This document shows positions 9,656 through 47,719 of a stretch of 64,000 bases of DNA, one piece after another; the stretch's first letter is position 1; each line of letters starts with the position of its first letter. Position numbers and translations under genes: made by a program. Origin of the DNA: Spirochaetia bacterium (GTDB lineage: Bacteria > Spirochaetota > Spirochaetia > G963692905); contig OY843583.1 of assembly GCA_963692905.1 (NCBI GenBank), forward strand, positions 1,407,883 to 1,471,882, written 5' to 3'. Below the pieces are notes generated by a model, which was not told where the DNA came from, did no database searches, and saw nothing but the letters and a program-made list of their open reading frames with translations.

Positions 9656-11020
9656 TTAATTATGTTCGATTCCATTGAATAATGAAGATGTCTCGTCTTC
9701 TATATTTATTGGCTTGTAAGTATCAATCTCGTTAATTATTTCTTGTAAACTCCCTGACACCCATTCATGCTTGTTGTCAAACTTGTTGTGAATATGTTTT
9801 TCTATTTCTCTAAAATGTGGGGTAAACATAGCATGTTCTATCTTATAATTCCTGTCCGGATCGCTCGTCTGATAGCCGTTCAGCCTGCTATTAACATTAC
9901 TAGCTATACCAACTTTGTACTCCCTTTCATAGTTCTGGTGAGATATCACATAGACAAACTTGTGTTGAACCTGATCTTTTTCTTTTGTGTCTGTTCTGTT
10001 AGGTGGTTCAGTCAAAAATAATAAATCCTTATCAAGTATTCTGTCAGCTATAATGGGGTTTTCTATTTCTTCTTTTAACCTTTTTCTTATTTCCACATAC
10101 GTCTGCTCTAATTTGTCTATACCAATCCACCGCCTATTAAGTATCTCTGCAGCTATGCAGGTTGTCGCACACCCACAAAATGGGTCGAGGACTACGCCTC
10201 CCTCTTTGGTGCTTGATCGTATTATTCTTTTTAACAATGGTACAGGCTTTTGAGTGGGGTATTTGGTCCTCCTTTTAGACATTGAATTTTCATAAGGAAT
10301 ATCCCCCCACCAATCATTACCATTTATCCCTTCTTCAGGGTAGTAGATTCTTTCTTTTCCAGCGTCTACTCGTATTCTGCATTTTCTACCCTGTTCGTCT
10401 ATTTGTCTGTAATGGCTTTGTATATATTCTGGAGTACAAGGAAGGGTACAATCCCCCTTAAACTGATTATGATCTTTGGTGTACCATAATATAATATCAT
10501 GCTTTTTTGCCCAACTGTTCCGTTTTCCTCTCTCTTGTCTGCCCGAAGTAGAGTACCCCCATACAATCTCATTGTTAAAGTTTTCTTCTCCGAAGATATT
10601 ATCTAATAGCAATTTAAGAAAATGAGACATAAGGGGGTCGCAGTGAAAACATAAGCTACCCGTGTGTTTTAGTATTCTTTGCATTTCAATTAACCTTATC
10701 GCCATATAACATAAATAATAAAAATTATATTTTTTCCCTATTTCTTTTGTACTGTTCAGAAAAGTATACAAACTATAATGATCCTCTTTGATTGTCTGTA
10801 CCCATTCATCTTTTACATCTTCTTTTCTGAAGATATCGTTGTACCCAATCTCTGTTTGCTTTCCTGTGTCATCTTTAGTCATGGGATACACGAATTTTTT
10901 GTTAGTGTTAAAAGGTGGGTCGAGGTAAACAAGGTCAATACAATTACTATTTATGCCTTGCAAGATTTCTAGGTTATCTCTACAAAAGATGGTTCTACTA
11001 GCTATATTACAAGGTGACAT
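9656..11020 (-). CDS. Beta-class N6A/N4C DNA methyltransferase fused to a C-terminal T5orf172/MUG113 (GIY-YIG superfamily) domain
   Basis: Motif IV DPPF sits near the N-terminus and motif I VLDPFCGCATT later, which is the beta order (PF01555-like). The C-terminal roughly 100 aa read FVYVIS...YKVGIASNVNSRLNGYQTSDP...EIEKHIHNKFDNKHEWV. Strongly AT-rich. Confidence 0.8.
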   Translation of the reverse strand: MSPCNIASRTIFCRDNLEILQGINSNCIDLVYLDPPFNTNKKFVYPMTKDDTGKQTEIGYNDIFRKEDVKDEWVQTIKEDHYSLYTFLNSTKEIGKKYNFYYLCYMAIRLIEMQRILKHTGSLCFHCDPLMSHFLKLLLDNIFGEENFNNEIVWGYSTSGRQERGKRNSWAKKHDIILWYTKDHNQFKGDCTLPCTPEYIQSHYRQIDEQGRKCRIRVDAGKERIYYPEEGINGNDWWGDIPYENSMSKRRTKYPTQKPVPLLKRIIRSSTKEGGVVLDPFCGCATTCIAAEILNRRWIGIDKLEQTYVEIRKRLKEEIENPIIADRILDKDLLFLTEPPNRTDTKEKDQVQHKFVYVISHQNYEREYKVGIASNVNSRLNGYQTSDPDRNYKIEHAMFTPHFREIEKHIHNKFDNKHEWVSGSLQEIINEIDTYKPINIEDETSSLFNGIEHN

Positions 11021-23214: not shown

Positions 23215-23340
23215 ATGATATTTGCCAGCCGGTATCCGGCTTGCCACAGGAACGACCTCAGCGAAAGATGAGGCAGAGCGCAGCGGGGCAACCCTTAGGC
23301 ATATGAGGAGGCTCTTTATGCAGCGGGAAAGAGGGGGAGA

Positions 23341-23532
23341 GATCAACTCTCTCTTTATTTTTTACAAATTCTCCATTTCACTTGCCATTACATATCCAAT
23401 AGGGTATACATATACTTATGGTAATGCACCAGTTGGCTATATTGCGCTATGCGGAGGGAAGCTATGCTCCTCTCCTTAGCTATAGTTCATTAGGTGCCTA
23501 CCAAATAAATATAAATAAGGAGGATTATAGTA
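23341..23532 (+). promoter_or_regulatory. Shared promoter plus roughly 150-nt structured leader of the lipoprotein family (copy L1)
   Basis: TTGCCA-17-TATACA. Conserved block TGCGCTATGCGGAGGGAAGCTATGCTCCTCTCC..TAGCTATAGT with a hairpin. RBS AAGGAGGA before the ATG at 23533. Confidence 0.55.
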
Positions 23533-23600
23533 ATGATATTACATAATCCAATTTCTTTCCTTTTAGGAGAGAAAGAGACAGCAAGCGCTCTTAAGACTTG

Positions 23601-23650
<50 letters not shown>

Positions 23651-23743
23651 AGCTCTCTTAATACTTGCCAGAGAGAGAACCACGTTTCCCCGCATTCCCC
23701 GCTTAAGGGGAGGGTACTGTGGGGCACCCTAGGGGCTGCCGGG

Positions 23744-25123
23744 GTGGTATTGGCGGCCCTGGTGGTATTGGTAGCCTGTCCGGCTACCCCTAGTCCCGGT
23801 CCGGGATTGGCCTCTGTCACAGAGGTGGCAGCGGCTCACGGGCACAGTTGCGCCCGGTTGGAGGGTGGCAGCCTCAAATGTTGGGGAGACAATGGCTTTG
23901 GCCAGCTAGGTCAGGGTCATACCCGCACCCTAGGCGATAGCACCACTGATGGGGTGGCTACTATCCCGGCTATTGATCTAGGCACTGGTCGAAGCGCCAC
24001 TCAGATAGTAGCCAATGGAGGTCAATATACAATTAGTGGAGTTAATACTGAAGTAGGTCACAGTTGCGCCCTCCTGGATAATGGGAGTGTCAAGTGTTGG
24101 GGAAATAACGCTTTTGGCCAGCTAGGGCTGGGTGATACCGATACTCGAGGCGATGAGTCCGGTGAGATGGGCAATAGCCTCCCAGCTATTGATCTAGGAA
24201 GCGGCCAAACTGCTACCCGGCTAGCTGCAAGTGGCAGTCACAGCTGCGCTCTCTTGGATAATGGGAATGTCAAGTGTTGGGGAAATAACGCTTTTGGCCA
24301 GCTAGGTCAGGGTCATACCCGCACCCTAGGCGATAGCACCACTGATGAAGTGGCTACTATCCCAGCTATTGATCTAGGAGGCGGCCGCACCGCCACCCAG
24401 ATAGCCACAGGTAGCCTTCACAGCTGCGCCCTCCTGAATAATGGGAGTGTCAAATGTTGGGGATGGAACACAGCTGGCCAGCTAGGTCAGGGTCATACCC
24501 GCACCCTAGGCGATAGCACCACTGATGAAGTGGCTACTATCCCAGCTATTGATCTAGGAGGCGGCCGCACCGCCACCCAGATAGCCACAGGTAGCCTTCA
24601 CAGCTGCGCCCTCCTGAATAATGGGAGTGTCAAATGTTGGGGAAATAACGGTTTTGGCCGGCTAGGTCTGGGCGATACCGATCATCGAGGCAATGAGCCC
24701 AATGAAATGGGCGATAGTCTCCCAGCTATTGATCTAGGAGGCGGCCGAACTGCTACCCAGATAGCTATAAGTGTCAGGCACAGCTGCGCCCTTTTGGATA
24801 ATGGGAGTGTCAAGTGTTGGGGATTTAACAATAGGGGCCAGCTAGGTCAGGGTCATAACCGTACCCTAGGCGATGGGCCCAATGAGATGGGCGATAATCT
24901 CCCAGCTATTGATCTAGGCACTGGCCGAACTGCTACCCAGATAGCTGCAGGTTCCACTCACAACTGCGCTCTCCTGGATAATCGGAGAGTCAAATGTTGG
25001 GGATGGAACGCAGGTGGCCAGTTAGGTCTGGGCGATACCAATGATCGAGGCGATGAGCCCGGCGATGAGCCCAATGAGATGGGCGATAATCTCCCCTTTG
25101 TTGATCTGCGGGCTTCCCGTTAG
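23744..25123 (+). CDS. RCC1-repeat (beta-propeller) surface lipoprotein. The likely true start is ATG 23533, which is out of frame through the AG tract.
   Basis: Lipobox LVAC. Seven or more RCC1 blades ([23 protein letters not shown]). Conserved in-frame residues upstream of the GTG (SPHSPLKGRVLWGTLGAAG). Confidence 0.8.
   Translation: MVLAALVVLVACPATPSPGPGLASVTEVAAAHGHSCARLEGGSLKCWGDNGFGQLGQGHTRTLGDSTTDGVATIPAIDLGTGRSATQIVANGGQYTISGVNTEVGHSCALLDNGSVKCWGNNAFGQLGLGDTDTRGDESGEMGNSLPAIDLGSGQTATRLAASGSHSCALLDNGNVKCWGNNAFGQLGQGHTRTLGDSTTDEVATIPAIDLGGGRTATQIATGSLHSCALLNNGSVKCWGWNTAGQLGQGHTRTLGDSTTDEVATIPAIDLGGGRTATQIATGSLHSCALLNNGSVKCWGNNGFGRLGLGDTDHRGNEPNEMGDSLPAIDLGGGRTATQIAISVRHSCALLDNGSVKCWGFNNRGQLGQGHNRTLGDGPNEMGDNLPAIDLGTGRTATQIAAGSTHNCALLDNRRVKCWGWNAGGQLGLGDTNDRGDEPGDEPNEMGDNLPFVDLRASR
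24295..24643 (+). repeat. Perfect tandem duplication (period 180 bp) of one RCC1 blade
   Basis: 24295-24463 is identical to 24475-24643. Confidence 0.95.
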
Positions 25124-26005: not shown

Positions 26006-27046
26006 TTATTGATAGCGGAGCGCATAGAGGGAGCCCGTTCCCACCATATAGAGGGCGCTGTCAATAGCTGCTAGGCCGGCTGGGGAGATCCCGGTCAAAC
26101 CAAAGCCGGTGGTTGCACTGCCCACCTGAATTGCCATACCATCGGGGGTGCCATCTGCGGCGCCAATGTTTAGGGTATACAGGACACCATTGGTCTGTCC
26201 CAGCAGGTAGAGGGTACCATCAATGGCGGCTAGACCGTTGGGGATGCTTTCGCTCACGCCAAATTGGCTTACACTGGAAGCGCTCACCTGGGTTGCCATA
26301 CCACTAGTAGTGTCTAGGGTGTAGAGGACTTGATTGACCACTCCCGCCATATAGAGGGTGTTGTCAATGGAGGCCAGGCCGGTTGGGGCTCTTTCGCCCA
26401 TTCCAAAACCGGAGAGCACACCACTGCCTACCCGGGCTGCCATACCGGTAGTAGTGTCTAGGGTATAGAGGAAAGCATTGGCCAATCCCACCATATAGAG
26501 GGTGTTATTGATGGCGGCTAGGCCGGTTGGTTGGCCTTCGCCCACGCCAAATTGTCTTACAGCTGCATCGCTTACCCGGGTGGCCACACCACTAGCAGTG
26601 TCTAGGGTAAAGAGGGCACCATTGCTCTGTCCCACCATATAGAGTGTACCATCAATGGCAGCCAGACCGGTTGGGCTGGATTCTCTCACGTCAAATTGGC
26701 TTACACTGCCTATGCGGGTGGCCTCCCCTAGGGCTACTGGCCTACAGCTTCTACCAACTACATCAGTGGGGTCATCAAGTCTATAGAGCGGATTACAGCT
26801 AACACAGCGGATTAGACCATCGGCAGTGGCATCTCTGAGAGAGGAAGGGGTACCGTTGGCACAGACATAACCGGTGCCACCTCCTCCACTAGGGGTAGCC
26901 GGACAGGCTACCAATACCACCAGGGTCACCAATACCACCAACGCAGCCCCCAGGGTGCCTAAGAGCGTCCTACCCTTAAGCGGGAAATACGAGGAGGCGT
27001 GCTCCTCTCTCTTGAGCGTTTTACGAGTGCTCAGTCGCTCCTTCAC
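26006..27046 (-). CDS. Surface lipoprotein with six roughly 48-aa beta-propeller-like repeats
   Basis: Shared N-terminal module (FPLKGRTLLGTLGAALVVLVTLVVLVAC), Cys module YVCANGT...RCVSCN, and repeats FGxxExxPTGLAAIDxTLYMVG...LYTLD. Confidence 0.75.
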   Translation of the reverse strand: MKERLSTRKTLKREEHASSYFPLKGRTLLGTLGAALVVLVTLVVLVACPATPSGGGGTGYVCANGTPSSLRDATADGLIRCVSCNPLYRLDDPTDVVGRSCRPVALGEATRIGSVSQFDVRESSPTGLAAIDGTLYMVGQSNGALFTLDTASGVATRVSDAAVRQFGVGEGQPTGLAAINNTLYMVGLANAFLYTLDTTTGMAARVGSGVLSGFGMGERAPTGLASIDNTLYMAGVVNQVLYTLDTTSGMATQVSASSVSQFGVSESIPNGLAAIDGTLYLLGQTNGVLYTLNIGAADGTPDGMAIQVGSATTGFGLTGISPAGLAAIDSALYMVGTGSLYALRYQ

Positions 27047-27095
27047 TCTCTCATTCTCTCTTAAAAGGAAAAGAACTTATATTAAGATATTTCAT

Positions 27096-27320
27096 TTCTG
27101 AAACTCCTCCATATAATTATTATAAATTTGATAAATGCCTAAGCGACTATAGCTAGGGGAGAGGAGTATAGCTTCCCTCCGCATAGCGCATAGAATCATT
27201 AGTTTCATAATCATGAATAGAGTATAGCATATGGGATATATAATGGCAAGGTTAAAATAGAAAATTTTGTAAGGGAAAGTTAACCATGTCCCTTAAAAAA
27301 TAGAGGGAAGCATCCTTAAT
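27096..27320 (-). promoter_or_regulatory. Shared promoter/leader, copy L3
   Basis: TTGCCA-17-TATACT and the conserved GCGCTATGCGGAGGGAAGCTATACTCCTCTCCCCTAGCTATAGTCGC block. RBS GGAGGAG before the ATG at 27095. Confidence 0.55.
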
Positions 27321-42327: not shown

Positions 42328-42380
42328 CGAAGTACACTATATGGTAAGATTCGGAGAGAGAGAGAGAGGAGGGATAACAG

Positions 42381-46130: not shown

Positions 46131-46335
46131 GTAGACATTCAGCTCTCTCTTTATTTTCCTTCAAAATTCTCCATTTCCTTTGACATATATGCATCCCATA
46201 TGCTATACTTTACCTATGGTAATGTACCAATTGGTTATGTTGCGCTATGCGGAGGGAAGCTATGCTCCTCTCCCCTAGCTATAGTCGCTTAGGCACTTAC
46301 CAAATTTATAATAAATATATGGAGGATATTCAGAG
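46131..46335 (+). promoter_or_regulatory. Shared promoter/leader, copy L2
   Basis: TTGACA-18-TATACT. Conserved leader block with hairpin. RBS GGAGGA before the ATG at 46336. Confidence 0.55.
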
Positions 46336-46418
46336 ATGAAATATCTTAATATAAGTTCTTTCCTTTTGAGAGAGAATGAGAGAGTGAAGGAGCGACTGAG
46401 CACTCGTAAAAACGCTTC

Positions 46419-46442
46419 AGAGAGAGAGAGAGAGAGAGAGAG
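46419..46442 (+). repeat. (AG)12 dinucleotide tract inside the 5' coding extension
   Basis: 24 nt of uninterrupted AG. Confidence 0.95.
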
Positions 46443-46507
46443 TAAGCTCTCTTAATACTTACCAGAGAGAGAACCATGTCTCCCCGCATTCCCCGTTTAA
46501 GGGGAGG

Positions 46508-47719
46508 GTGCTGTGGGGCACCCTGGGGGCCGCCTTAATGGTATTGGTGACCCTGGTAGTATTGGTAGCCTGTCCGGCTGCGAATAATGCTGGAAATGGA
46601 GGTCCTGGTCCTGGTCCTAGTCCTGATGAGGAGTATGTCTGTGCCAACGGCACCGCCGTTGATGGTACCACTGATACGGCTGGGGAAACCCGCTGTGTAA
46701 GCTGTGACACGAATTATGTCCTGTCCGGTGTTGCCTGCGTTCGTCGGGCCGGTATCTGCTTTAATCCACCAGGCGGTGACATACTTGTCGGTACTGCGGA
46801 CGATAATACGCTTACTAGTACCACTGCAAATAATGAGCTGTATGGTTGTGGAGGGACCGATACCTATGTCTTTGCCGCCAACTTTGGTATGGATAGTATT
46901 GGATCTGACATGACCACCGATAGCGAATTAGAGGGGGAAGACACAATACAGTTTGATAGCGCCGCGGCGCTCTCTTTTGGCTATATTACTGGCACTACCC
47001 ATGTCACCATTGGTCAAGGGAGCGGCCATACCCTTACCATTTACGAGCCCGATCGTATCCTTGGTAGCGCCACTTCTCTTGAGACCGGCCCCCCCAGTGC
47101 GGTGGACTTTAAGCTACGGCATGGAGGCACAACCTACAATGTAATGGTAGGGGATTTAGGCTCTAGTGCTTCTGGTGTACTACCCCCTACACTATTACTA
47201 GTTGGGACTCCAGCCCCGGATATCTTAATCGGATTTGGTGGAGACGATTTCCTTGCAGGAGCAGTTTTTCTAAGTACTATCCCGAACACTGATAATGATA
47301 TTCTCCTGGGTGGTGCAGGTAATGATATTATACGTGGCCATCAAGGTGACGATCTACTGATTGGTGGCCCTGGTAACGATCAGCTCTATGGTGGAGCACC
47401 CGACGACAGACCTGTAGACGATGCCTGGGGAGCAGATATCTTTCGCTTTGGTAGCAACTTTGGTACTGATACGATTGGGTTTTATGGTGGAGTTAGTTCT
47501 ACTATGGCTCTTGGCATAGACTCCACAGATAGGCTAGAGTTCACCGATACTGGCACCCTTACCTTGAGTTGGAACGCCGATAACGACCTTACCATTGCAC
47601 AGGGAAGCGATAGTGTTCTTGTTTATAGAGCCAACAGGGCCTTTGGTTTTACTATTGAGTGGAATAGTATGACTGAGACGGTAGATAGCACTACCGATCT
47701 TCTGGTAGATGGTATGTAA
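46508..47719 (+). CDS. Surface lipoprotein with RTX-type calcium-binding nonapeptide repeats. The likely true start is ATG 46336, which is out of frame through the AG tract.
   Basis: Shared N-terminal module and lipobox LVAC, Cys module YVCANGT..RCVSCD, and GGAGNDIIRGHQGDDLLIGGPGNDQLYGG (GGxGxD repeats). Confidence 0.8.
   Translation: MLWGTLGAALMVLVTLVVLVACPAANNAGNGGPGPGPSPDEEYVCANGTAVDGTTDTAGETRCVSCDTNYVLSGVACVRRAGICFNPPGGDILVGTADDNTLTSTTANNELYGCGGTDTYVFAANFGMDSIGSDMTTDSELEGEDTIQFDSAAALSFGYITGTTHVTIGQGSGHTLTIYEPDRILGSATSLETGPPSAVDFKLRHGGTTYNVMVGDLGSSASGVLPPTLLLVGTPAPDILIGFGGDDFLAGAVFLSTIPNTDNDILLGGAGNDIIRGHQGDDLLIGGPGNDQLYGGAPDDRPVDDAWGADIFRFGSNFGTDTIGFYGGVSSTMALGIDSTDRLEFTDTGTLTLSWNADNDLTIAQGSDSVLVYRANRAFGFTIEWNSMTETVDSTTDLLVDGM

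What the first reader, a model, noticed from the sequence alone, without database searches (positions are those of the whole stretch)
46336..46520. Second contingency locus: (AG)12 tract uncouples the RBS-proximal ATG from an RTX-repeat lipoprotein
The design is the same as at 23.5 kb. A GGAGGA RBS with an ATG at 46336 gives MKYLNISSFLLRENERVKERLSTRKNASE(RE)n, which terminates at a TAA at 46453. The main ORF frame is open from 46400 and has its first canonical start at the GTG at 46508.

The frame offset is identical to the other locus: one extra AG unit, or two fewer, restores a single ORF. The fused ORF would read ...RERVSSLNTYQRENHVSPHSPFKGRVLWGTLGAALMVLVTLVVLVAC. Two unlinked genes with different bodies but the same switch suggest a dedicated variable-surface system.
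Basis: partly seen in the sequence, partly recalled or inferred. Interest (0 to 1): 0.7.

Follow-up and report, generated by a model that had tools for sequence, protein, structure and literature searches.

The report
AG-repeat on/off switch, spirochaete lipoprotein gene
A run of twelve AG units sits inside the start of a surface-lipoprotein gene and currently knocks it out of frame; it is one copy of a slippage-prone on/off switch shared by dozens of lipoprotein genes in an uncultured spirochaete lineage, working like known phase-variation switches in Neisseria and Helicobacter.

Summary
(AG)12 lies at 46419-46442. A GGAGGA/ATG at 46336 opens a 39-codon ORF that stops at TAA 46453. The RTX lipoprotein frame is open from 46400. 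One more AG unit, or two fewer, gives a single 461/459-aa ORF.

- The locus is one copy of a ~435-nt cassette: promoter, conserved 5'UTR, RBS/ATG, charged ~55-aa leader, signal peptide and lipobox. The window holds three copies.
- At least 24 paralogues in the same 1.88-Mb genome read continuously from the leader ATG to the lipobox. One is an 83%-identical RTX paralogue whose leader matches a 7-unit tract.
- The start codon must lie upstream of the tract: GTG 46508 is not conserved in the other copies.
- Related metagenomic spirochaete contigs carry the same design with (AG)22, (GA)13, (GA)17, (AG)17 and even poly-G10. One of these five is in frame and four are out of frame.

The best explanation is slipped-strand, translational phase variation of a large variable-lipoprotein family. 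This is a new member of a known kind (Neisseria opa, H. pylori oipA).

Length variation within a population at this locus could not be tested, because no reads or second strain were available.

The parts
46143..46579 (+). Shared 5' expression/switch cassette: promoter, 5'UTR, RBS, leader, tract, signal peptide and lipobox.
   Evidence: It is 85% identical over ~440 nt to 23340-23785, although the gene bodies are unrelated (RTX versus RCC1).
46180..46209 (+). Sigma-70-like promoter, TTGACA-18 nt-TATACT, with a TG extension.
   Evidence: It matches 11 of 12 consensus positions. The hexamers are conserved in all three window copies. It is a consensus match only; the transcription start is inferred.
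46242..46273 (+). Conserved 5'UTR box GCGCTATGCGGAGGGAAGCTATGCTCCTCTCC, containing a GGAGGG...CCTCTC hairpin.
   Evidence: There are three matches in the window (23444, 27158 minus strand, 46242) against 0.00 expected. It folds as a hairpin in the MFE and centroid structures. No Rfam family covers it. Its function is unknown.
46321..46326 (+). Shine-Dalgarno sequence GGAGGA, 9 nt upstream of the ATG.
   Evidence: Read directly from the sequence. An AGGAGG-type SD at 7-9 nt is conserved in every cassette, including L008-L011.
46336..46455 (+). Leader ORF as assembled (OFF state): 39 codons ending at TAA 46453-46455.
46419..46442 (+). (AG)12 hypermutable tract. It encodes (RE)n or (ER)n inside the leader.
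46443..46455 (+). Stop codons for both OFF frames directly after the tract: TAA 46443-46445 and TAA 46453-46455.
   Evidence: The same arrangement is found at the 23.5-kb locus (stops at 23649 and 23659) and in L009, L010 and L011.
46447..46471 (+). CTCTCT (46447-46452) is complementary both to the tract and to AGAGAG at 46466-46471, giving alternative hairpins that flank the tract.
   Evidence: Its role is unknown. It may stabilise slipped DNA or form an mRNA structure.
46400..46507 (+). The lipoprotein reading frame is open here, upstream of any canonical start codon. It encodes ...RVSSLNTYQRENHVSPHSPFKGR, the distal half of the leader.
   Evidence: The same peptide is in frame with the leader ATG in P0002, P0008, P0131 and P0136.
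46508..47719 (+). RTX-repeat lipoprotein ORF (403 codons counted from GTG 46508). The lipobox LVAC is at 46562-46573 and the RTX repeats at about 47285-47386.
   Evidence: Pfam HemolysinCabind, E = 6e-14, residues 260-293. It is 83% identical over its full length to the fused paralogue P0002. GTG 46508 is GTA in the 23.5-kb copy and ACG in the 27-kb copy.
23533..25123 (+). Sister locus: the same cassette with (AG)22 at 23603-23646, on an RCC1-repeat lipoprotein. It is OFF by the same offset.
26006..27095 (-). Third cassette copy, on a DUF4394-like beta-propeller lipoprotein. It has no expanded tract (only AAGAGAGAGG). The leader residues are in frame with the lipobox, but the ATG at 27095 is cut off by one extra T in a T4 run.
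   Evidence: Deleting one T gives a 362-aa ORF starting at the ATG.

Best explanation
The (AG)12 tract is a slipped-strand-mispairing switch inside the coding sequence of a cleavable N-terminal leader.

Proposed mechanism:
- Transcription starts at a conserved sigma-70-like promoter.
- Ribosomes load at a strong GGAGGA/ATG (46336) and translate a charged leader of about 55 aa that contains the tract as (RE)n.
- When the unit number is 1 modulo 3 (7, 10, 13, 16...), translation continues into KGR, the hydrophobic core and the LVAC lipobox. The product is a pre-lipoprotein whose leader and signal peptide are removed at the lipobox cysteine, so the mature RTX protein is the same at every ON length.
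- At any other unit number, ribosomes hit a TAA 0 or 3 codons after the tract and little or no lipoprotein is made. The assembled 12-unit allele is OFF.
- Gain or loss of AG units during replication flips the state reversibly and independently at each locus.

The locus is one member of a family of at least 50 lipoprotein genes in a 1.88-Mb genome of an uncultured, deep-branching member of the Spirochaetia. The bodies are RTX beta-roll, RCC1, DUF4394-like and lactonase-like propellers, and all share this 5' cassette.

Shown here: the anatomy, the frame arithmetic, the existence of fused paralogues, conservation of the design across organisms, and tract lengths that differ between near-identical copies.

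Inferred: the slippage rate and its reversibility, the promoter and transcription start, Lgt/Lsp processing of a precursor with such a long n-region, and surface exposure.
For: 1. Anatomy and frame rule.

2. The start codon must lie upstream of the tract.
- In the lipoprotein frame, L009 has no ATG/GTG/TTG anywhere between the tract and the lipobox Cys.
- In the 23.5-kb copy the first candidate start lies 11 codons before the Cys, inside the hydrophobic core.
- GTG 46508 is not conserved: it is GTA in one copy and ACG in another.
- The conserved K/R residues (KGR) that a signal peptide needs lie upstream of GTG 46508.

3. The fused ORF is the normal family architecture. Of 51 same-genome family members, 24 read continuously from the leader ATG to the lipobox. 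They include P0002, which is 83% identical to this gene and whose leader matches the 7-unit simulation, and P0008, P0130, P0131 and P0136, which contain (RE)n.

4. About 14 members are called with N-terminally truncated signal peptides that lack any charged n-region. This is the expected look of OFF copies, and the window's own gene call (P0001) is one of them.

5. The same design occurs in other organisms' contigs.
- L009: an RTX homologue (43% identity) with (AG)22, OFF; 21 or 24 units give 581/583 aa.
- L010a: (GA)13, OFF.
- L010b: (GA)17, ON (381 aa).
- L011b: (AG)17, OFF.
- L011a: poly-G10 at the same leader position of another RTX lipoprotein, OFF.
- L008: no tract, leader in frame.

6. 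OFF-frame stops lie close behind the tract. In the three AG-type cassettes first examined (the two window loci and L009), both OFF frames stop within 0-4 codons. In L010a, L011b and L011a one OFF frame runs 12-18 codons, but still ends before the signal peptide.

7. Tract instability on a short time scale. L010a and L010b differ at 2 of about 135 post-tract positions yet carry 13 versus 17 units. The 46-kb and 27-kb leaders differ at 1 of 75 aligned positions, yet one has 12 units and the other has none.

8. OFF bodies are intact: 403, 459 and about 540 codons with significant domain hits.

9. Precedent: coding repeats in the leader-peptide region switch Neisseria opa genes at about 1e-3 per cell per generation (PMC3745409). 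CT dinucleotide repeats in the signal-peptide region switch H. pylori oipA (PMC10564699).
Against: - No within-population or between-strain length variation at this same locus could be observed. The cassette was not found in genome contigs or metagenome contigs. No protein more than 86% identical was found between contigs that would identify an orthologue in a second strain.
- Six of the seven SSR-bearing loci with DNA are OFF. This is compatible with random phase (binomial P of about 0.26 for at most 1 ON at 1/3), but also with decay.
- GTG 46508 is preceded by an SD-like TAAGGGGAGG. Seven paralogues were called from the equivalent codon, and some relatives have an ATG there (MRRL...). Tract-independent low-level initiation therefore cannot be excluded.
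- An n-region of about 57 aa is unusual for a lipoprotein signal peptide, and its export competence is untested.
- The codon-position pattern of substitutions in the post-tract leader is not distinctly coding-like. There are too few differences to decide.
- Assembled tract lengths may be inexact. L009 comes from a contig labelled 2.14x.
Confidence: 0.8

Rival explanations
1. Leaky or graded switch. The lipoprotein is also translated from an internal start (GTG 46508, behind the SD-like TAAGGGGAGG), independently of the tract. The tract then only chooses between strong expression (fused, from the GGAGGA/ATG) and weak expression (internal start, perhaps by re-initiation after the leader ORF ends 53 nt upstream).
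For: - GTG 46508 exists, with TAAGG 5 nt upstream.
- Seven same-genome paralogues are called from the equivalent codon (MLWGTLG or MLGGTLG).
- Relatives such as L011b have an ATG (MRRLSNAP...) just before the hydrophobic core, which gives a canonical signal peptide.
- From my own knowledge, not checked here: H. influenzae lic1 combines 5' repeats with alternative start codons.
Against: - The start codon is not conserved. It is GTA in the 23.5-kb copy and ACG in the 27-kb copy, there is none in L009, and there is none before the hydrophobic core in L008.
- A product starting at GTG 46508 would have no K or R in its n-region.
- The SD-like bases are simply the codons for K-G-R.
Confidence: 0.12
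2. Decay rather than adaptive switching. The AG run is a neutral microsatellite that expanded in a dispensable leader, and the out-of-frame copies are young pseudogenes in a redundant, turning-over gene family.
For: - Six of the seven SSR loci with DNA are OFF.
- The family contains obvious fragments (P0121-P0123; P0124 is split) and a non-SSR frameshift in the 27-kb copy.
- No population data are available.
Against: - Long SSRs sit at the same leader position in at least three organisms and use two different repeat types (AG and poly-G).
- Both alternative frames are closed before the signal peptide, in three cassettes within 0-4 codons of the tract.
- OFF bodies of 400-540 codons are intact.
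- ON copies with tracts exist (L010b, P0008, P0131, P0136).
- Tracts of 12-22 units are far above the lengths at which slippage is frequent (established knowledge), so reversion is expected whatever the origin.
Confidence: 0.08
3. Assembly artefact of state. The true tract length in the organism is in frame, and the 12-unit consensus is a repeat-length error or the majority call from a mixed population.
For: - Dinucleotide tracts are error-prone in long-read consensus.
- The 27-kb copy differs from an intact ORF by one T in a homopolymer.
- Related contigs show split genes (L008).
Against: - This would change only the reported state, not the switch.
- Contigs with hifiasm-style names (L010, L011; long-read/HiFi origin is inferred from the names, not documented) show the same mix of ON and OFF.
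- Two tracts in the window are OFF by the same offset despite different lengths.
Confidence: 0.15
4. Recoding. Ribosomes or RNA polymerase shift frame on the AG run, helped by the adjacent AGAGAG/CTCTCT hairpin, so the fused protein is made from the 12-unit allele without any DNA change.
For: A hairpin lies directly 3' of the tract.
Against: - (AG)n is not a known slippery heptamer.
- Transcriptional slippage is established for long homopolymers, not for dinucleotide runs (established knowledge).
- ON and OFF loci need different shifts (+1 or -1).
- In-frame paralogues show that the ordinary reading suffices.
Confidence: 0.02

Closest known systems
Neisseria opa genes (CTCTT coding repeats in the leader-peptide region)
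   Same: - A multigene family of surface proteins is scattered round the chromosome.
- Each copy has its own repeat tract inside the cleaved leader or signal-peptide coding region.
- The unit length is not a multiple of 3, so the tract sets the frame of the mature protein.
- The mature protein is unchanged by tract length.
- Loci switch independently (PMC3745409).
   Different: - The unit here is the dinucleotide AG (or poly-G in one relative), not a pentamer.
- The tract lies in a ~55-aa charged extension upstream of the hydrophobic core, not in the core itself.
- The products are lipoproteins with beta-roll or beta-propeller bodies, not Opa beta-barrels. No sequence homology was seen.
- The host is a spirochaete.
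Helicobacter pylori oipA/hopH and related OMP genes (5' CT dinucleotide repeats)
   Same: A dinucleotide repeat (CT, which is AG on the other strand) in the 5' signal-peptide coding region turns the gene on or off by slipped-strand mispairing (PMC10564699).
   Different: - Those are outer-membrane beta-barrel proteins, not lipoproteins.
- There is no shared promoter/UTR/leader cassette across unrelated gene bodies.
- The tracts here are longer (12-22 units, against mostly 5-11 CT in that paper).
Mycoplasma variable lipoprotein families (Vlp, Vsp, Vsa types)
   Same: These are large families of lipoproteins in a small genome. A highly conserved 5' region (promoter, 5'UTR, prolipoprotein signal peptide) is joined to divergent bodies, and the genes switch on and off stochastically. 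This comparison rests on my own knowledge; a lipoprotein review surfaced but was not read.
   Different: In those systems the switch is a promoter-spacer homopolymer or a site-specific DNA inversion, not a coding-frame SSR in a long leader. There is no homology to them.
Treponema pallidum tpr genes (poly-G promoter tracts; 3 versus 4 CT repeats in tprA)
   Same: It is a spirochaete surface-protein family in which SSR length decides whether a full-length product is made (PMC3656149).
   Different: - The tprA repeat has only 3-4 units, lies mid-gene and differs between strains rather than acting as a long hypermutable tract.
- The poly-G tracts act on transcription.
- The proteins are unrelated.

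Membership tests
SSR-mediated translational phase-variation locus (contingency locus) | A perfect simple-sequence repeat long enough to slip frequently. | tested here: met
   (AG)12 with 100% matches; 0 expected by chance. The sister tract has 22 units.
SSR-mediated translational phase-variation locus (contingency locus) | The repeat lies inside the translated region with a unit length that is not a multiple of 3, so changes in unit number shift the frame. | tested here: met
   The tract lies between the RBS-proximal ATG and the signal peptide. Simulations give ON at 7/10/13/16 units and OFF otherwise. No conserved start codon lies downstream.
SSR-mediated translational phase-variation locus (contingency locus) | The ON frame gives a full-length functional protein and the OFF frames terminate early. 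| tested here: met
   The fused ORF of 461 aa has an intact RTX body. The OFF frames stop 0 and 3 codons after the tract. The in-frame paralogue P0002 exists.
SSR-mediated translational phase-variation locus (contingency locus) | Repeat number varies between cells or strains at the same locus. | not testable with these tools
   No reads and no second strain were reachable. Only indirect evidence exists: different lengths in near-identical paralogous cassettes and across organisms.
SSR-mediated translational phase-variation locus (contingency locus) | Reversible, high-frequency switching of the phenotype. | not testable with these tools
   This requires culture or a single-cell assay.
Bacterial lipoprotein (Lgt/Lsp substrate) | A signal peptide with a positively charged n-region, a hydrophobic core and an [LVI][ASTVI][GAS]C lipobox. 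| tested here: met
   KGR, then VLWGTLGAALMVLVTLVV, then LVAC. This is pattern inspection only; no predictor was run. The n-region is met only in the fused reading.
Bacterial lipoprotein (Lgt/Lsp substrate) | Lipidation and cleavage at the cysteine. | not testable with these tools
   Biochemical. The ~57-aa n-region is atypical.
RTX / HemolysinCabind repeat proteins | Tandem GGxGxD nonapeptide repeats recognised by PF00353. | tested here: met
   E = 6e-14, 52 bits against a cut-off of 23, residues 260-293.
RTX / HemolysinCabind repeat proteins | Type I secretion via a C-terminal signal (classical RTX toxins). | not tested
   The protein has an N-terminal lipoprotein signal instead. No T1SS genes were looked for. 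The conserved C-terminus ...VDSTTDL[LM]VDG[MS] is of unknown role.
Neisseria Opa / H. pylori Hop families (homology) | Sequence membership in those OMP families. | tested here: not met
   Pfam and homologue searches give only RTX, RCC1, DUF4394 and lactonase-type hits. The resemblance is in mechanism only.

The most novel reading that the evidence does not exclude
The leader may be a dedicated, portable switch module. The unit would consist of a promoter, a conserved 5'UTR, a strong RBS/ATG, a dispensable cleavable peptide of about 55 aa whose main job is to host a hypermutable SSR (AG, or poly-G), and a lipoprotein signal peptide. Recombination would have placed this unit in front of more than 50 unrelated lipoprotein bodies, about 3% of the genes of a 1.88-Mb genome, and kept it across several uncultured spirochaete species. 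That would give them a combinatorial, independently switching surface repertoire on the scale of Mycoplasma or Neisseria. This would be the first contingency-locus 'phasome' described for this branch of the Spirochaetia, and it would point to a host-associated or heavily preyed-upon lifestyle.
Probability: 0.5. Interest if true: 0.65.

Novelty: new member of a known kind. Interest (0 to 1): 0.5.

Why it matters
If the tracts do switch, a small-genome, uncultured spirochaete lineage runs a large stochastic surface-variation system. Its logic matches opa and oipA, but it is attached to lipoproteins through a shared, movable 5' cassette.

- **For annotation:** gene callers truncate or split these genes. 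The window's own call starts at MVLVTLVVLVAC, and about 14 paralogues are called without an n-region. The true lipoprotein repertoire is therefore under-reported.
- **For biology:** it marks these beta-roll and beta-propeller lipoproteins as the molecules under fluctuating selection from a host, phage or grazers. It also gives ready-made markers (tract lengths) for following population bottlenecks in metagenomes.
- **An open question:** how is a lipoprotein precursor with a ~55-aa charged extension ahead of its signal peptide exported?

Tried and rejected
- **Collection scans.** An exact scan for the conserved 5'UTR box found nothing in genome contigs or metagenome contigs. The leader profile A2 found no relatives in metagenome contigs.
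- **Exact-protein look-ups.** Look-ups for window proteins and same-genome paralogues returned nothing. The source genome appears to be withheld, so paralogue DNA could not be read. No names or accessions were available.
- **SucA relatives.** L001-L007 have at best 58% identity and come from Spirochaetaceae or Spirochaetia MAGs. They share only sucC, sucD and sucA and carry no cassette, so no synteny test of insertion was possible.
- **Leader-profile word search.** One search was swamped by low-complexity RE words and returned only three fragments. The exhaustive HMMER search worked better.
- **Rfam.** Only a tRNA was found in the window, and nothing covers the 5'UTR.
- **Codon-position test.** The test on the post-tract leader among the three window copies had too few substitutions to be informative.
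- **Orthologous loci in other strains.** No pair of family proteins from different contigs exceeds 86% identity, so between-strain tract comparison was not possible.
- **Relatedness by housekeeping genes.** tblastx of the window against L008-L011 matched only the family genes, so relatedness could not be quantified that way.
- **Literature.** Searches found no description of this system in spirochaetes.
- **Rejected readings.** An independent leader-peptide or uORF-only reading is rejected because fused ORFs are the family norm. A promoter-spacer SSR is rejected because the tract lies about 210 nt downstream of the -10 element. Recoding is rejected for lack of a slippery motif.
Full report
**1. 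Observation**

- TRF finds (AG)12 at 46419-46442 and (AG)22 at 23603-23646. These are the only dinucleotide repeats above 7 units in the 64 kb.
- A 24-nt AG run is expected 0.00 times in shuffles.
- GGAGGA (46321-46326) lies 9 nt before the ATG at 46336. That ORF runs 39 codons to TAA 46453.
- The next frame is open from 46400, and its first canonical start is GTG 46508.
- Adding one AG unit or removing two yields a 461- or 459-aa ORF. The 23.5-kb locus obeys the same rule.
- Both OFF frames stop 0 and 3-4 codons after the tract at both loci.

**2. What surrounds it**

- The 46-kb and 23.5-kb loci share a ~435-nt block at 85% identity, although one body is an RTX protein and the other an RCC1 propeller.
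- The block contains:
  - a near-consensus promoter, TTGACA-18-TATACT;
  - a 32-nt 5'UTR box with a hairpin;
  - the RBS and ATG;
  - a charged leader containing the tract;
  - the motif TAAGCTCTCTTAATACTT.CCAGAGAGAGAACC;
  - a signal peptide ending in LVAC.
- A third copy lies on the minus strand (box at 27158-27189) in front of a DUF4394-like lipoprotein. It has no expanded tract, and its leader residues (FLLRENERVKERLSTRK...) are in frame with the lipobox. Only one extra T in a T4 run separates the ATG from a 362-aa ORF.
- The flanking genes are housekeeping genes: miaA and dnaX around the 23-27-kb pair, and a biotin/lipoate-ligase-family gene and rpmG-tRNA-secE-nusG around this locus. The cassette genes are therefore dispersed, not in one island.

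**3. Is the leader translated?**

Three lines of evidence say yes.
- **No usable downstream start**.
  - GTG 46508 is GTA in the 23.5-kb copy and ACG in the 27-kb copy.
  - In L009 there is no ATG/GTG/TTG at all between the tract and the Cys.
  - In the 23.5-kb copy the first candidate lies inside the hydrophobic core.
  - The basic residues a signal peptide needs (KGR) lie upstream of 46508.
- **The fused ORF is the family norm.**
  - The window comes from a 1,881,732-bp contig.
  - P0002, from the same contig, is 83% identical to this gene over its whole length. It starts MKYLNISSFFLRENERVKERLSTRKNASERERVSSLNTCQRENH..., exactly the 7-unit product simulated here.
  - Of 51 same-genome family members recovered, 24 read from a leader ATG through to the lipobox. 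Four of them have (RE)n of 3 or more.
  - Eight have short canonical signal peptides.
  - About 14 are called with truncated signal peptides lacking a charged n-region, as this gene's own database call is.
- **The design recurs in other organisms** (table below).

| Locus | Source | SSR | State as assembled | In-frame lengths |
|---|---|---|---|---|
| L008 | ENA ERZ22155170 | short AG runs only | leader in frame | n/a |
| L009 | ENA ERZ25070167; RTX homologue, 43% identity | (AG)22 | OFF | 21 or 24 units give 581/583 aa |
| L010a | ERZ19489113 | (GA)13 | OFF | 12 or 15 units give 371/373 aa |
| L010b | ERZ19489113 | (GA)17 | ON (381 aa) | n/a |
| L011b | ERZ19489113 | (AG)17 | OFF | 15 or 18 units give 377/379 aa |
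| L011a | ERZ19489113; RTX lipoprotein | poly-G10 at the same leader position | OFF | 8 or 11 units give 368/369 aa |

The L010 and L011 contig names look like hifiasm output, so long-read (HiFi) origin is inferred, not documented. The lipobox-coding 12-mer GCCTGTCCGGCT is identical in the three window cassettes and in L008 and L009. L010 and L011 carry GCCTGTCCCGCT or GGCTGTCCGGCC at that position.

**4. Evidence that the tracts change**

Direct population data were out of reach. Indirectly:
- L010a and L010b differ at 2 of about 135 post-tract positions but carry 13 versus 17 units and have different leaders.
- The 46-kb and 27-kb leaders differ at 1 of 75 aligned positions, yet one has 12 units and the other none.
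- Same-type leaders in the genome show (RE) runs of different lengths: P0008, P0131 and P0136 have runs, while P0140 has none.
- The tract seems to have grown from a short AGAGAG motif encoding RE within a duplicated 'RLS..T.QRE' segment.

**5. Mechanism**

The most likely mechanism is slipped-strand mispairing in the AG tract, setting the reading frame between a strong upstream start and the signal peptide. This gives reversible ON/OFF switching, possibly high/low. Because the tract lies in the part removed at the lipobox cysteine, all ON lengths give the same mature protein.

The assembled allele is OFF. One of the seven SSR-bearing loci with DNA is ON, which is compatible with random phase.

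Caveats:
- An SD-like TAAGGGGAGG precedes GTG 46508, and some relatives have an ATG at that point, so residual tract-independent initiation is possible.
- The very long n-region is unusual.
- Tract lengths in assemblies can be wrong.

**6. Comparison and novelty**

- In how it works, this is the opa/oipA design: coding repeats in the leader or signal-peptide region (PMC3745409; PMC10564699).
- It is combined with a Mycoplasma-like shared 5' lipoprotein cassette. That comparison rests on my own knowledge.
- It is not homologous to any of those families.
- In spirochaetes, SSR effects are known for T. pallidum tpr genes (PMC3656149). I found no description of an AG-tract lipoprotein family.
- The organism is an uncultured, deep-branching member of the Spirochaetia. 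Its SucA is at most 58% identical to any GTDB representative.
- I rate it a new member of a known kind. The scale (at least 50 genes in 1.88 Mb), the dedicated long leader and the interchangeable SSR types are the noteworthy points.

Noticed in passing
window 26006-27290 (minus strand): Third copy of the cassette, in front of a DUF4394-like beta-propeller lipoprotein. It has no expanded AG tract. The leader is in frame with the lipobox, but the ATG at 27095 is cut off by one extra T in a T4 run (TTCTTTTCC). This is either a homopolymer sequencing error or a non-SSR frameshift.
   Followed up: yes
window 46242-46273, 23444-23475, 27158-27189 (minus strand): A 32-nt 5'UTR box, GCGCTATGCGGAGGGAAGCTAT[G/A]CTCCTCTCC, forms a GGAGGG/CCTCTC hairpin and is more conserved than the leader coding sequence. 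It has no Rfam match. A shorter motif, CTAYCAAAT followed by an AT-rich stretch and AGGAGG, is shared with the relatives' cassettes. The function is unknown; it could be a regulator or RNase site.
   Followed up: partly
window 42354-42367: A (GA)7 run lies immediately upstream of the GGAGGG Shine-Dalgarno sequence of sucA (ATG 42381). It is the third-longest dinucleotide repeat in the window. It lies outside any ORF, and its effect on expression, if any, is unknown.
   Followed up: no
L011 1880-2010: In a related metagenomic spirochaete, an RTX lipoprotein gene carries a poly-G10 tract at the leader position where other copies carry AG tracts. It is OFF as assembled; 8 or 11 G would give 368/369 aa. 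The leader therefore hosts different SSR types.
   Followed up: yes
L010 8440-8800 versus 9870-10250: Two tandem family genes have almost identical post-tract and signal-peptide sequence (2 differences in about 135 nt). Their 5'UTRs and leaders are unrelated and their tract lengths differ (13 versus 17). This suggests mosaic recombination or gene conversion among cassettes.
   Followed up: partly
window 46580-46720 and paralogues P0006, P0008, P0009 and the 27-kb gene: Just after the lipobox, many family members share a Cys-rich module (Y[VL]C.NGT..DGTTDT.G.TRC.SC...Y.L....C) ahead of otherwise unrelated bodies. The RTX members also share a C-terminal motif, ...VDSTTDL[LM]VDG[MS]. The roles of both are unknown.
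   Followed up: no
window 24057-25060 and 26167-26709: Long tandem DNA repeats (180-nt period with 5.6 copies; 144-nt period with 3.8 copies) correspond to the RCC1 and DUF4394-like propeller blades of the two neighbouring cassette genes. They may be a second, recombinational source of size variation.
   Followed up: no
window 46447-46471 and 23653-23677: CTCTCT directly after the tract is complementary both to the tract and to a downstream AGAGAG, so two alternative hairpins can form. This is conserved at both loci.
   Followed up: partly
whole family (proteins P0001-P0221 from the 1,881,732-bp contig): Automatic gene calls for this family are often N-terminally truncated or split. The window's own gene is called from MVLVTLVVLVAC, and L009's RTX gene from an internal Met 138 codons too late. 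Public annotations therefore under-report these lipoproteins.
   Followed up: partly
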